Made by a program: the position numbers. A DNA stretch of 64,000 nt, taken from contig NW_026855905.1 in assembly GCF_026571515.1 (NCBI RefSeq), positions 1-64,000 of the forward strand, written 5' to 3'. Shown here piece by piece: positions 51,001 to 54,000 of this stretch (the stretch's first letter is position 1; the number at the start of each line of letters is the position of its first letter). The stretch is from Ruditapes philippinarum (lineage: Eukaryota).

Positions 51001-54000
51001 TAATGAGATAGGAGATTTAAAATAATTTTATTGAAATGCTTCAGTTATCATATTCTACAATAATGTAAAACAAATTCAACTTTGTCTTTATATCTATATA
51101 TACGGGAAGGAAACATTAAACAAAAAAAATAGAAGGAAAGAGAATTCCTAACGAGAGTCCAGAACGGCATAATGTAAAATGTTGCATCTCGGTTTGTTTG
51201 ATCCTTAGCACCGGCGTAAGCATTATTCAACATTTAAACATGTAATGGTAAAATTTAAAATTGATATCATCCTTAAAATAATTTTGTATTTCTATGTATT
51301 AATCACATAATTAAATAAACAGCTACTTTTGCTATACTTGTTTTAAGGGAAGAAGACCGTAGCTGGTTAAAGCTACACGCCTCAAGATGAGCAAAAATAT
51401 TTCAAGAAATTCAATCTTTAGAAAAATGTATTAAGATCTAAACGAGAGTAAAAAGATTTAATATTTAAAGAGCCTGTATGTTGTAATTGAGGTTATATAC
51501 CACACTTAAGTGAAATTATGTATAATATGTTATAATTATGCTCATATTTTAATTTTTAAAACAAGCAATGAACGCAACCCACACAACCCGTAAAGGACCA
51601 GCGGCCAGGAGCCAAGGAAGATCCCGAACAAAACAAGACCTTAAAACTAAAATGCATTACCATACTGGAATCATATTTGATCAGTTGCCCATGAGGACAA
51701 TTCACTGCTAATGTCATTATCGATCTTCTAAATTGTGCATTATGAATCGTTCTGTCATTAATTATTCCATGGTTATTAATTAACACTGCATATTCTTTTT
51801 CTTTGTTAATAACGTGATACCCTAACGTTTGTCACTTTTTTTTCTGTTGTCATATTTAAAAATCATGTACAATTAAATAAATGCTTTGAAACAATATTCA
51901 AAATGTTTATAACATTTCCTTTGGTTTAATATAAACTGAAGTGTTTGCCTTTAAAGGATATTCTCATTCTTTGAAAATAAAAAAATGGCATTGTAAGATT
52001 TTGATGGATGATATTAAAAGGAAAATGCAAACAAATATTCGAATACTTTAAAGAACTGTTTTTTTTCTTATTTTCAAATATCACGGGCTAAAAAGTGTGC
52101 ATACACTTAACAAGTTAAACATAATTTTCCATAAAAACATACATATACTTTTAAATTAAATAATAGTTGAATTCAATGGAATTAAATAATAAAAAAGTAA
52201 ATGCTATGGTGGGGATTAGTTTTTCTGTTTTATATAAAAACATAACGCTGAAAATTATTCACTCAACCGCTGAAAATATCGCAAGCAATTTATTTCTTTT
52301 TATACAATAACATTGTTTCGAAAGATTAACCATGTATCATAATAACCAATCTGAGTATTTTTGGCAGATCCAAATCAAACCGAGTCTGCATTTTTCTTGT
52401 TATTTGGTTGTGATTAATGCTTCCGAGGGATCACTTTGTTTCCAGATTTGTATACTTAACAACAGCAGGTGTCAAGTGCTTTGGGCATCTGTAAAAATTG
52501 CCCCGTACTTCAGTGTTGTTATATTTTTCTGGTCCTTCGGGATCATTGATGCCAGCACTATTAAGTGTTGAGAATTGAGTACCGCTCAAATCCGGTGCTA
52601 GGGGGCGTGAGGTATGTGGCACGTATTCATTATCCCTCATGTACAGACTAAATCAAACCGAGTCTGCAATTCTCTTGTAATTTTGTTGTGATTAATGTTT
52701 TCGAGCGATCACTTTGTTTCCAGATTTTCATTAGATTAAAGGGAAATGAATAGGAAGGCAGAGACACATTTACATATTTACATATTTTGTTTCATTATAA
52801 TTGATATTTTAATGATATTAATTGGTATAATCATTTAAATGAATGATACATAAAGCATTCCTCTCGAAATTTTGCGACATTTCATTACATCATCTCATCT
52901 TTATAAAAAGGAACACAATTATAACAATTATTGTTTTTCTGTTTAGAACACTTAACAATTTTGTTAAGTTCCACCCATTGTGCGCAAGCACTTTATTTTT
53001 ATTTGGGACCGGTACGCCTTTTTTTCATGGAATATCACTAACGTGTCAAATTAAATGTTCTATGATGATCAACGCTTATTATTTTGGCGTTTTTATTTCT
53101 GAGGCAATTATGATACCGGATGCAAAAACAATTTTACGGCAATTAAAACGGTGATTGTAATGTTAATTACGGCATCTTAATAAGATTTAAACGTCGTATA
53201 CACCACGCAAAGCGGAAGACTACAGTTGATTTTAATTGCCTTTGATTAAAAGAAGTGTGTATGATTCGACACGATCTTTGGTTCATTCCATTATTTTAAT
53301 TATCGACGAATGTCCATGTTTGCATCTAGCTAACGGTTTGTTTTCATAATGCCTCTAGTTACTAATTTATTGTTTTGTTAATAGCCTTGTCGGTTAATAG
53401 AAAAACTTGAGAAAATTGAAAATAACAGAATAATTTTTGCTTTCTTTAATTATATTTAAACACAGTTAAATATTAAAAACGATGAGTATCAATTTATGAA
53501 GATACACTTTTGCTGCCCTGCATTTGACATAATAGTTTGTTTTATTGATACTTTGTACATAACAACATAAACATGGGGCTAACGTTCACCCTACCGGCCA
53601 GACAAACGATTAAGTTGCTCTTGATTCAGCCTTTTAAATTTTTGAATCTTGAAAAACCTGGAAAATTGCTTCTAATATGGTAAACGAAAATTCATAAACC
53701 ATAGAAATGGCTATTTAAATATAAATATGAATGTTTTGTCATAGATATCTAAAGCTATTGATGATATATTTATATATATATTTATTATACCATTTCAAAA
53801 ACGATAATTTTGCTTCTTTTCTCCCAATGACATTTTCTATATTCATCATGTTTGTTCGAGCAGGTGATGTTGCATTTATAGCTTGATGGCAAGTACTGTA
53901 TTTTCTATTTTGGAGATTGGAAATCATGTTATGTTAAACTGGGATATTTTTAGGGTGAATTATTGAAAATATTTATAGAACAACACAGGTACATGAAACA

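What the first reader, a model, noticed from the sequence alone, without database searches (positions are those of the whole stretch)
52570..52715. Motif A topology resembles U1/U11 snRNA: closing helix, three stem-loops, Sm-like site, 3' hairpin
Seen: after the closing helix comes AAUUUUG (22180-86, 52679-85, about 46230, and 30550-56 on -), then a terminal hairpin (GUGAU...AUCAC in A2). Established: U1 and U11 fold as helix H, SL1-3, Sm site, SL4; U1 SL2 carries AUUGCAC (U1A site) and the U11 SL3 loop contains AUCAA. Motif A has UUGCAC in loop 2 and AAUCAAA in loop 3. It lacks the U1 5' splice-site complement, the U1-70K loop and the U11 5' end, and the Sm-like site is degraded in some A1 copies. 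Inference: possibly a lineage-specific Sm-class RNA, or an snRNA-derived retroposon like crocodilian SINEU.
Basis: partly seen in the sequence, partly recalled or inferred. Interest (0 to 1): 0.7.

Follow-up and report, generated by a model that had tools for sequence, protein, structure and literature searches.

The report
Structured core of a mobile repeat
The U1-like fold is really there, but it sits inside a short mobile repeat scattered through this probably molluscan DNA, and no test linked it to spliceosomal RNAs.

Summary
Window 52570-52715 folds as a closing helix, three stem-loops, a single-stranded AATTTTG and a 3' hairpin. The closing helix, stem-loop 2 and stem-loop 3 are kept by compensatory changes between two subfamilies, A1 and A2: 8 of 8 pairs changed on both sides still pair.

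It is not a gene locus. A covariance model finds 17 copies or fragments in 64 kb on both strands. They share fixed 3' ends, 5' truncations at varied points and no poly(A). One copy is absent from a paralogous duplicate of its site (filled versus empty site, 4-nt duplication).

The same core is joined to different 5' modules, and the A1 head also occurs with another body. This is the modular build of SINE-like, LINE-dependent retroposons.

Rfam at E<=10 on four loci gave no U1, U11, other snRNA, tRNA, 5S, 7SL or ribozyme match. The 3' hairpin is A2-only.

AATTTTG is no commoner in the window than chance (57 versus 61.6). It is, however, identical in both subfamily consensuses while its flanks differ.

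Verdict: a structured body domain of a short retroposon family. An snRNA origin is unsupported but not excluded. Repbase, Dfam and SINEBase could not be searched.

The parts
52450..52727 (+). Full-length A2 unit: about 120-nt 5' module, four-way-junction core, AATTTTG, hairpin and tail.
   Evidence: Homology with 45994-46279 and 30787-30501(-) starts at the same point, just after the tail of an upstream copy. The whole-unit fold has z = -3.42, with 0 of 200 shuffles as good.
52570..52674 (+). Four-way-junction core. Closing helix 52570-52577/52667-52674, stem-loop 1 within 52578-52605, stem-loop 2 at 52607-52640, stem-loop 3 at 52644-52666.
   Evidence: Folds, pair counts and consensus comparison, where 8 of 8 doubly changed pairs stay paired. 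Conserved G.U pairs place the structure on the + strand.
52679..52685 (+).
   Evidence: Identical in the A1 and A2 consensuses (7/7), while the flanks differ (1/4 upstream, 4/8 downstream). Exact in 5 of 12 copies. The word itself is not enriched in the window.
52688..52712 (+). 3' hairpin of subfamily A2 (GTGATT...GATCAC).
   Evidence: The hairpin pattern is found 4 times against 0 expected. In the pair count, 60.6% of cells pair over all copies, and 3 of 6 pairs are broken in the A1 consensus.
52713..52727 (+). 3' tail ending ...CCAGATTT, with no poly(A).
   Evidence: The same end occurs in the arrays at 46279 and 30501(-), next to different flanks.
52372..52449 (+). 5'-truncated A2 copy (from the stem-loop 3 loop to the tail), directly upstream of the full unit.
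   Evidence: 91% identical to 52650-52727. Also a covariance-model hit at 52318-52411, E = 0.0094.
45855..46279 (+). A2 array: a 5'-truncated copy (45855-45993, starting in stem-loop 1) followed by a full unit (45994-46279). It shares its 3' flank with the 52-kb locus.
   Evidence: Covariance-model hits at 45844-45955 and 46121-46241.
30501..31001 (-). A2 array on the minus strand: a 5'-truncated copy (31001-30788) followed by a full unit (30787-30501). Its flanks are independent of the other arrays.
   Evidence: Covariance-model hits at 30830-30950 and 30546-30666.
62268..62385 (-). Decayed, 5'-truncated A2 copy.
   Evidence: Covariance-model hit at 62305-62386, E = 2.9e-7.
21866..22230 (+). 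Longest A1 copy: head module, core (22071-22190) and tail ending ...CTATTTT.
   Evidence: Best covariance-model hit, 139.6 bits. Core fold z = -2.83.
47216..47510 (-). A1 copy.
   Evidence: 88% identical to 21936-22230. Its 3' boundary is fixed against paralogues.
45242..45500 (+). A1 copy, 5'-truncated and decayed.
33570..33680 (+). 5'-truncated A1 insertion that is absent from the paralogous site at 1818/1819. It is flanked by TTTG at 33566-33569 and 33681-33684.
   Evidence: Alignment of 1500-2300 with 33240-33820.
10282..10444 (-). A1 copy inside a larger three-copy repeat. Its paralogues are 40565-40733(-) and 51126-51262(-), so the three count as one insertion event.
   Evidence: The three share flanks on both sides. 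All three are covariance-model hits.
20205..20561 (.). Two partial A1 copies in inverted orientation: 20205-20452 (+) and 20454-20561 (-).
62894..63013 (+). Partial A1-like copy (stem-loop 1 and stem-loop 2 region only).
   Evidence: Covariance-model hit, E = 1.5e-7.

Best explanation
Motif A is the conserved, structured body of a family of short (about 280-370 nt), non-coding, non-autonomous retroposons. These could be SINE-like elements or internally deleted, non-autonomous LINE derivatives. The host genome is AT-rich and probably molluscan.

Proposed mechanism:
1. A plus-sense transcript of a master copy folds into a four-way junction, with invariant loop and junction sequences and a single-stranded AATTTTG.
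2. The RNA is copied into new sites from its fixed 3' end by the reverse transcriptase of a partner LINE (target-primed reverse transcription).
3. This gives 5'-truncated copies, very short target duplications and head-to-tail pairs. The pairs arise either when the enzyme jumps to a second RNA or when the master already holds tandem units.

Steps shown here: the repeat family, the strand of the structure, compensatory evolution of three helices, the fixed 3' end, 5' truncation, one insertion against an empty paralogous site, and the modular exchange of 5' modules.

Steps inferred: that the fold and the invariant loops are kept because a protein must bind them for stability or reverse transcription (the partner LINE's proteins or a host factor), which polymerase makes the RNA, and which LINE moves it.
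For: - Copy number: there are 17 covariance-model hits with E<0.01 on both strands of 64 kb, all belonging to the family.
- Two subfamilies share the core but have unrelated 5' modules.
- The A1 head also occurs with a different body at 52958-53066, 48768-48826, 33071-32966 and 1292-1212.
- All well-preserved copies end at the same point: A2 at ...CCAGATTT and A1 at ...CTATTT. The 5' ends vary, falling in stem-loop 1, stem-loop 2, the stem-loop 3 loop or the 5' module.
- Filled versus empty site: 33566-33680 is present in one paralogue of a roughly 92%-identical duplication and absent at 1818/1819 in the other. It is bounded by a 4-nt repeat.
- Structure is under selection. Between the A1 and A2 consensuses, 8 pairs changed on both sides and 3 on one side, and all 11 still pair. 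Paired columns differ more (21/64) than unpaired core columns (9/43).
- Pair counts give 85.6% of cells paired against 35.2-45.7% when slid.
- Conserved G.U pairs fix the strand.
- The window is full of non-LTR retrotransposon genes (endonuclease, reverse transcriptase, RNase H), which could supply the machinery.
- Modular SINE families with conserved central domains, and with structure-preserving subdomains, are described in molluscs (PMC4758252, abstract and sections 9 and 11 read).
- SINE bodies can come from LINE parts (PMC5786205, abstract read).
Against: - No tRNA, 5S or 7SL head or A/B-box promoter was recognised (Rfam E<=10; ARAGORN).
- Internal runs of 4-5 T would hinder RNA polymerase III.
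- No LINE 3' end in the window shares the tail. Three were read, one of them runs into the N stretch, and BLAST found nothing.
- Apart from the 4-nt repeat at the one empty site, no copy has flanking repeats longer than chance.
- Independent insertions are few, about 8 for A1 and 3 for A2, because segmental duplications inflate the count.
- Only two independent head-to-tail arrays exist, and DNA-level tandem duplication could also make them.
- Thermodynamic support is weak for the A2 core (z = -1.15) and for one A2 unit (z = -1.58).
- The RNAalifold covariation term is only -0.02 kcal/mol.
- There is no transcript evidence.
Confidence: 0.72

Rival explanations
1. The core is a lineage-specific Sm-class small nuclear RNA, or a retroposon body derived from U1/U11. 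It would bind an Sm ring at AATTTTG and a U1A-type protein at loop 2.
For: - The topology matches: helix, three stem-loops, a single-stranded U-rich site, and in A2 a 3' hairpin.
- AATTTTG and TTGCAC are identical in both subfamily consensuses while their neighbours differ.
- The distance from the closing helix to the 3' end is about 156 nt.
Against: - No U1, U11 or any other snRNA model matched at E<=10 in four loci.
- The full heptamer AUUGCAC is in 0 of 13 copies.
- The base after AATTTTG is a pyrimidine in the copies that keep it, unlike the recalled Sm consensus.
- The recalled U1 5'-end motif is not beside any copy.
- The 3' hairpin is lost in A1.
- The mobile unit includes 120-200 nt upstream of the helix, and these differ between subfamilies.
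- SINEU has its snRNA part at the 5' end and a poly(A) tail (PMC4494074).
Confidence: 0.06
2. The copies are 5'-truncated 3' untranslated ends of an autonomous LINE, not a separate short element. The fold would be the reverse-transcriptase recognition structure of that LINE.
For: - The copies have a fixed 3' end, 5' truncation and no poly(A).
- No polymerase III head was found, and the units contain internal T runs.
- The window holds at least three LINE remnants.
Against: - No copy is preceded by LINE coding sequence.
- The same core follows at least three different non-coding 5' modules.
- Two independent A2 arrays place the unit start at the same position.
- BLAST of the units against the window hits no LINE region.
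Confidence: 0.12
3. The cloverleaf is a diverged tRNA-derived polymerase III unit. The stem-loop 3 loop would act as a B-box-like site, and the T run 4-6 nt after the closing helix as its terminator.
For: - The closing helix plus three arms is also the tRNA topology.
- Stem-loop 3 abuts the 3' strand of the closing helix, as a T arm does.
- A run of four T follows within about 6 nt.
- By eye, the stem-loop 3 loop partly resembles a B box. This rests on recall and was not tested.
Against: - The Rfam tRNA model gave no hit at E<=10 in four loci, and ARAGORN found none.
- All arms are longer than in tRNA.
- The core lies 120-200 nt from the 5' end of the mobile unit, too far for an internal promoter to start transcription at the unit's start.
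- Copies extend 45-50 nt past the T run.
Confidence: 0.05
4. The 280-nt units are a DNA-level tandem repeat (a short satellite or gene array) spread by segmental duplication, not by retroposition.
For: - All three A2 arrays are head-to-tail with a period of about 280 nt.
- The window is riddled with segmental duplications.
- The 46-kb and 52-kb arrays share a flank.
Against: - Every array ends at the same base but starts at a different one.
- Tandem Repeats Finder reports no array there at score >=80.
- Single A1 copies lie in unrelated flanks on both strands.
- One copy is an insertion relative to its own paralogue.
Confidence: 0.05

Closest known systems
SINE superfamilies defined by a conserved central domain (CORE, V/Vhc, Deu, Ceph, Meta, and in molluscs MESC, Nin-DC/Snail)
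   Same: - Short, non-coding, LINE-dependent elements built from exchangeable head, body and tail.
- The body is conserved across families while heads and tails are swapped.
- For the Vhc subdomain, a stem-loop is reported as preserved within the overall fold (PMC4758252, abstract and section 11).
   Different: - No tRNA-derived head was recognised here.
- There is no microsatellite or poly(A) tail.
- The conserved part is a whole four-way junction with 8 compensated pairs, not a single hairpin.
- Identity with any named domain could not be tested. The published sequences are in figures and in a supplement that could not be read, and k-mer text searches found nothing relevant.
U1 snRNA (Rfam RF00003) and U11 snRNA
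   Same: Both have a helix closing a four-way junction of three stem-loops, followed by a U-rich single strand and a terminal hairpin.
   Different: - No covariance-model match.
- No 5' splice-site-pairing end.
- 7 unpaired bases sit between stem-loops 1 and 2.
- Loop 2 is 15-16 nt long.
- The terminal hairpin is absent in A1.
- The core is embedded in a longer mobile unit.
SINEU (crocodilian SINEs with U1/U2-derived heads; Kojima 2015, PMC4494074)
   Same: Short retroposons with internal T runs, no recognisable promoter and a role for template switching (section 18).
   Different: - SINEU heads are alignable to U1/U2 and lie at the 5' end.
- All SINEU groups have poly(A) tails.
- SINEU is known only from crocodilians (section 10).
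- None of these three features holds here.
Non-autonomous (internally deleted) LINEs such as Bov-A, and LINE 3' stem-loops recognised by their own reverse transcriptase
   Same: They have no polymerase III head, a fixed structured 3' region, 5' truncation and no poly(A). Bov-A is mentioned in PMC4494074 section 18, and the general idea is in the PMC5786205 abstract.
   Different: No parent LINE sharing either end was found in the window.
tRNA cloverleaf / tRNA-derived SINE heads
   Same: They share the four-way-junction topology, with the last arm abutting the closing helix and a T run shortly after.
   Different: The tRNA model and ARAGORN are negative. The arms are longer, and the core is not at the 5' end of the element.

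Membership tests
U1 snRNA | Match to the Rfam U1 covariance model (sequence plus structure) | tested here: not met
   Relaxed cmscan at E<=10 on 52340-52760, 21900-22260, 45800-46300 and 30440-31040 gave 8 weak hits in all (E 0.28-8.8). None was an Sm-class snRNA.
U1 snRNA | 5' end complementary to the 5' splice site | tested here: not met
   The recalled 11-nt U1 5'-end motif, searched with <=2 mismatches, gave 16 matches against 18.0 expected. None lies beside a motif A copy. By eye, the first bases of the A2 unit share a 7-nt run with that motif, but the position that pairs with the first intron base differs. This is inference from recall.
   TTGCAC is exact in 8 of 13 copies. The base before it is never A, so the full heptamer occurs in 0 of 13. 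The loop is 15-16 nt long.
U1 snRNA | U1-70K-binding loop in stem-loop 1 | not tested
The loop consensus would have to be recalled, and no tool test was run beyond the negative covariance model.
Sm-class snRNAs in general | Sm site (purine, A, run of U, G, purine; recalled) in a single strand flanked by helices | tested here: inconclusive
   AATTTTG is single-stranded and identical in both consensuses, and exact in 5 of 12 copies. The next base is a pyrimidine. The downstream helix exists only in A2. The word occurs at chance frequency in the window.
Sm-class snRNAs in general | Upstream proximal sequence element and 3' box; trimethyl cap; Sm binding | not testable with these tools
   This needs the species' own snRNA genes and wet-lab assays.
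U11 snRNA | Match to the Rfam U11 covariance model | tested here: not met
No hit at E<=10 in four loci.
SINEU | 5' head alignable to U1 or U2, and a 3' poly(A) tail | tested here: not met
   There is no snRNA similarity. The copies end ...ATTT with no A run. The definition is from PMC4494074 section 10.
SINE / short LINE-dependent retroposon | Short, non-coding, dispersed, on both strands | tested here: met
   Units are about 280-370 nt. There are 17 model hits. ORFs over the copies have no Pfam match.
SINE / short LINE-dependent retroposon | Retroposition marks: fixed 3' end, variable 5' truncation, and insertion with target duplication | tested here: met
   The duplication at the one empty site is only 4 nt. 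Elsewhere flanking repeats are not above chance.
SINE / short LINE-dependent retroposon | Head derived from tRNA, 5S or 7SL RNA with an internal polymerase III promoter | tested here: not met
   Rfam relaxed scans covered both kinds of 5' module, and ARAGORN found none. This is why 'SINE-like' is used rather than 'SINE'.
SINE / short LINE-dependent retroposon | Tail shared with a partner LINE | tested here: inconclusive
   No match was found among the LINE 3' ends in the window. One LINE end is interrupted by the N stretch, which was left alone. The rest of the genome is not available.
SINE / short LINE-dependent retroposon | Modular build with a shared central domain | tested here: met
   The core is shared by A1 and A2, which have unrelated 5' modules. 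The A1 head is shared with family B.
Named SINE central domains (MESC, Vhc, Nin-DC/Snail, Meta, CORE, Deu, Ceph) | Sequence similarity to the published domain consensus | not testable with these tools
   There is no Repbase, Dfam or SINEBase here. The consensus sequences are in figures, the supplement of PMC4758252 could not be searched, and k-mer searches of paper texts found nothing relevant.
tRNA | tRNA covariance model or ARAGORN call | tested here: not met
   The only tRNA-model hit in the window is elsewhere, at 4433-4491 (-).

The most novel reading that the evidence does not exclude
The retroposon RNA is an snRNP mimic. Its conserved AATTTTG would load an Sm (or LSm) ring beside a U1-like four-way junction, and the invariant loop 2 would bind a U1A/SNF-type protein. 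The RNA would then borrow the snRNP export, assembly and re-import route to reach chromatin for reverse transcription. Alternatively, the master copies are genes for a lineage-specific Sm-class RNA that sheds retrocopies. The evidence does not exclude this: the site and the loop are invariant between subfamilies whose helices have been rebuilt by compensatory change.
Probability: 0.06. Interest if true: 0.75.

Novelty: new member of a known kind. Interest (0 to 1): 0.3.

Why it matters
If the reading is right, the locus is ordinary repeat annotation and should not be entered as an snRNA gene.

Its modest interest lies in the clean evidence for a structural constraint. Three helices of a retroposon body were rebuilt by at least 8 compensatory pair changes, while four single-stranded blocks stayed identical. 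This marks an RNA-protein interface that the element needs.

That makes the family a tractable case for asking what the enigmatic 'body' of SINE-like elements does. It also gives a covariance model (R1) that could annotate the family genome-wide.

Tried and rejected
- **Rfam, gathering thresholds, whole window:** only a tRNA-model hit at 4433-4491 (-).
- **Rfam, relaxed, four loci:** no snRNA, tRNA, 5S, 7SL, hammerhead, twister, HDV-like or LINE 3'-element hit. The 8 weak hits (C/D snoRNAs, bacterial sRNAs, PK-repBA) are taken as chance.
- **ARAGORN:** nothing.
- **Tandem Repeats Finder:** no array at the A2 loci at score >=80.
- **Partner LINE:** the 3' ends after 15252, 24445 and 58649 were read, and short-word BLAST of the A2 and B tails was run. 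No LINE shares the tail. A likeness of the A2 and B tails seen by eye was not confirmed by BLAST at E<=1, so it is not used as evidence.
- **Target-site duplications:** the longest flank repeats of 7 copies are no longer than in random pairs.
- **Long-range pairing** of the A2 5' module with the 3' hairpin, seen in one fold, is not reproduced in another copy. There are too few sequences to test it.
- **Text searches of about 8.4 million papers** for 10 k-mers of the invariant blocks returned only unrelated primer-like matches.
- **Supplement of PMC4758252:** not searchable.
- **Paper search for 'SINEU'** by word start returned SINEUP papers. It was repeated as a whole-word search.
- **Exact gapped pattern in genome contigs** (prokaryotes only): 0 matches, as expected for a eukaryotic repeat.
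- **Species identification via two LINE proteins:** the best relatives are unnamed, at 50-62% identity. The named ones are molluscan (Mytilus, Pinctada, Mya, Elysia) at 33-40%, plus Candidatus Thiodiazotropha MAG entries at 38% and 43%. I suspect these are host-DNA carry-over, but that was not tested. No species is claimed.
- **Pfam on 69 ORFs of >=75 aa:** only LINE domains, and no host gene.
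Full report
**Setting.** The window has 27-33% G+C throughout. It carries one N stretch at 58764-58935, which was left untouched. ORFs of 75 aa or more match only non-LTR retrotransposon domains: endonuclease, reverse transcriptase and RNase H. This holds for 7 of the 69 ORFs tested, and no host gene was seen.

Two LINE ORFs were searched for relatives. The best relatives are unnamed, at 50-62% identity. 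The named ones are molluscan (Mytilus, Pinctada, Mya, Elysia) at 33-40%, plus Candidatus Thiodiazotropha MAG entries at 38% and 43%. I suspect these are host-DNA carry-over, but that was not tested. I therefore treat the window as a repeat-rich stretch of a probably molluscan genome. I do not take it for human.

The window also holds large segmental duplications:
- about 200-6100 is repeated at 31600-37500;
- about 8500-10450 is repeated at 38700-41830 and at 49350-52370.

These duplications inflate the copy counts given below.

**The observation.**
- closing helix 52570-52577 with 52667-52674;
- stem-loop 1 within 52578-52605;
- stem-loop 2 at 52607-52640;
- stem-loop 3 at 52644-52666, with AATCAAA in its loop;
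- AATTTTG at 52679-52685;
- hairpin at 52688-52712.

The minimum-energy folds of an A2 copy and an A1 copy both give the helix with three stem-loops. RNAalifold on nine copies recovers the closing helix, stem-loop 2 and stem-loop 3 without guidance. For stem-loop 1 it chooses a different register. That register is better kept, with 87.5% against 78.4% of cells paired.

**Is it more than chance?** Thermodynamics alone is weak for this copy: z = -1.15, with 23 of 200 shuffles folding as well. It is better for A1 at -2.83 and for the whole A2 unit at -3.42. For another unit it is -1.58. The RNAalifold covariation term is about zero at -0.02, because decayed copies break pairs.

The strong evidence is comparative. 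On 13 copies, 85.6% of cells pair, against 35.2-45.7% when partners are slid by 1-3 columns. None of 500 shuffles reach the covariation score. Those controls can be beaten by relatedness alone, so I also compared the two subfamily consensuses. Among the 32 core pairs, 8 changed on both sides (closing helix 3, stem-loop 2 4, stem-loop 3 1), and all 8 still pair. Three more changed on one side and still pair.

Paired columns differ more (21 of 64) than unpaired core columns (9 of 43). Four single-stranded blocks are identical in the two consensuses:
- the 3' side of stem-loop 1 plus the junction, 14 of 14;
- TTGCAC, 6 of 6;
- loop 3, 9 of 9;
- AATTTTG, 7 of 7.

The linkers beside AATTTTG are 1 of 4 and 4 of 8 identical. 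Several pairs are G.U in most copies, for example 9 of 12 and 10 of 11. They would be A.C mismatches on the other strand, so the structure belongs to a plus-sense single strand, most simply RNA.

**Corrections to the observation.**
- Loop 2 of the cited copy reads TGGCAC.
- AATTTTG is exact in 5 of the 12 copies that cover the site. As a word it is not enriched in the window: 57 found against 61.6 expected.
- Within copies it decays like its neighbours, at 0.84-0.90 identity to the consensus.
- The 3' hairpin is an A2 feature. Three of its 6 pairs are broken in the A1 consensus, and 60.6% of cells pair overall.

**What it is.** The motif is a repeat. BLAST of 52200-52800 against the window finds copies on both strands. 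A covariance model of the core (R1) was run without filters. It finds 25 matches at E<=1, and the 17 with E<0.01 are all family members.

The 17 hits are not 17 separate events:
- 10320-10439, 40603-40708 and 51164-51237 sit in a larger three-copy repeat and share both flanks.
- The arrays at 46 kb and 52 kb share their 3' flank.

I count about 8 independent A1 events and 3 independent A2 events.

In A2, homology starts about 120 nt upstream, at about 52450. In A1 it starts 130-200 nt upstream, at 21866-21936. The 5' modules of A1 and A2 are unrelated. The A1 head also occurs without the core, joined to a different body ('family B'). The head matches lie at 52958-53066, 48768-48826, 33071-32966 and 1292-1212, and the B units continue 3' of them.

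**Mobility.** Well-preserved copies end at one point: A2 at ...CCAGATTT and A1 at ...CTATTT, with no A run. Their 5' ends fall in stem-loop 1 (45855), the 5' module (31001, minus strand), the stem-loop 3 loop (52372) or stem-loop 2 (33570, 62385).

The clearest evidence is a filled and an empty site within the roughly 92%-identical duplication. Positions 33566-33680 are present in one paralogue and absent between 1818 and 1819 in the other. The inserted piece is a 5'-truncated A1 copy that ends at the family's usual 3' end, and it is bounded by TTTG on both sides. A microhomology deletion in the other paralogue is formally possible. The coincidence with the family's 3' end makes insertion the simpler reading.

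For seven copies, including that one, the longest flank repeat found by a common-substring script is no longer than in random pairs. Target duplications are therefore short or absent.

The three A2 loci are head-to-tail pairs, each a 5'-truncated copy followed by a full unit. A fixed 3' end with a variable 5' end is what target-primed reverse transcription gives. The pairs could arise by template jumping to a second RNA or from a master with tandem units. With only two independent arrays I cannot tell these apart, nor fully exclude DNA-level duplication.

Rfam at E<=10 with permissive filters was applied to four stretches covering both subfamilies. It gave 8 weak hits in all, with E from 0.28 to 8.8: three C/D snoRNA models, PK-repBA twice, and three bacterial RNAs. 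None was U1, U11, another Sm-class snRNA, tRNA, 5S, 7SL or a ribozyme.

- At gathering thresholds the only hit in the window is a tRNA-model match at 4433-4491.
- ARAGORN finds no tRNA.
- A recalled U1 5'-end motif is not beside any copy.
- SINEU has snRNA-alignable 5' heads and poly(A) tails and is confined to crocodilians (PMC4494074, abstract and sections 10 and 18 read). None of these features holds here.

The likeness in topology and the invariance of AATTTTG and TTGCAC between subfamilies are real. No explanation that I could test accounts for them.

**Mechanism proposed.** A plus-sense transcript of a master copy folds into the four-way junction. The invariant loops, the junction and AATTTTG are contact sites for a protein needed for stability or for priming of reverse transcription. 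A LINE reverse transcriptase then copies the RNA from its fixed 3' end.

Steps shown: the family, the strand of the structure, structural selection, 3' anchoring, 5' truncation, one insertion, and module exchange.

Steps inferred: the binding partner, the polymerase and the partner LINE.

Points against, or still open:
- No polymerase III head was found.
- The units contain internal runs of 4-5 T.
- No LINE tail in the window matches. Three were read, one of them runs into the N stretch, and BLAST was negative.
- There is no expression evidence.

The modular 'jigsaw' of heads, bodies and tails, and the conservation of a stem-loop inside a SINE domain, are described for molluscs (PMC4758252, abstract and sections 9 and 11 read). 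LINE-derived bodies and non-autonomous LINEs are described in PMC5786205 (abstract read) and in PMC4494074 section 18.

**What stayed unchecked.**
Copy number outside the window, the partner LINE, conservation in other species and identity with a named SINE domain are all open.
- The consensus sequences of the mollusc domains are in figures, and the supplement could not be searched.
- Searches of paper texts for ten k-mers from the invariant blocks found nothing relevant. This shows only that these exact words are not printed in the held texts.
- One exact gapped-pattern scan of the prokaryotic genome-contig collection found nothing.

**Verdict.** This is an ordinary kind of object, a short non-autonomous retroposon family, with an unusually well-supported structured body. 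It should not be annotated as an snRNA. The most novel reading, an Sm/U1A-binding snRNP mimic or a lineage-specific Sm-class RNA shedding retrocopies, is kept at about 6%.

Noticed in passing
window 200-6100 vs 31600-37500; 8500-10450 vs 38700-41830 vs 49350-52370; 1466-3487 vs 48616-46599 (inverted): Large segmental duplications, 84-99% identical, cover much of the window. One segment is present in a third, inverted copy. They allow filled/empty-site comparisons for younger insertions.
   Followed up: partly
window 52958-53311, 48768-49070, 1292-984 (-), 33071-32716 (-): 'Family B' is a second short repeat. It shares the A1 head (about 71-80% identity over 60-120 nt) but has a different body. 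By eye its 3' end resembles the A2 tail, but BLAST does not confirm this.
   Followed up: partly
window 1913-2255: A segment of about 340 nt is present in this paralogue but absent at 33774/33775 in the other. It is probably another insertion, and its kind was not determined.
   Followed up: no
window 4433-4491 (-): The Rfam tRNA model hits here at 36.4 bits, covering model positions 8-63 of 71, but ARAGORN calls no tRNA. It may be a tRNA-derived SINE head or a tRNA pseudogene.
   Followed up: no
window 11397-15252 (+), 54410-58649 (+), 23547-24445 (+): Three non-LTR retrotransposon remnants lie here. The first has endonuclease and reverse transcriptase in several frames. The second has a possible ORF1 plus endonuclease and reverse transcriptase, is frameshifted, and its 3' end runs into the N stretch. 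The third is an RNase H-bearing C-terminal fragment.
   Followed up: partly
window 60262-60474: A near-perfect palindrome: two 104-nt arms, 93% complementary, 5 nt apart. It may be a foldback or MITE-like element.
   Followed up: no
window 646-935: A tandem repeat of a 160-nt unit, 1.8 copies, 89% matches.
   Followed up: no
window 20205-20561: Two partial A1 copies abut in inverted orientation and form a long palindrome. It could be a rearrangement or a twin insertion.
   Followed up: no
window 52530-52560 and 52688-52712: The A2 5' module contains a stretch (CCTTCGGGATCATTGATG) that resembles the 3' arm of the 3' hairpin. In one fold it pairs with the hairpin's 5' arm, extending the closing helix into a long rod. 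Another copy does not reproduce this.
   Followed up: partly
window 58764-58935: A run of 172 N lies just after the second LINE's last ORF. It was left as it is.
   Followed up: no
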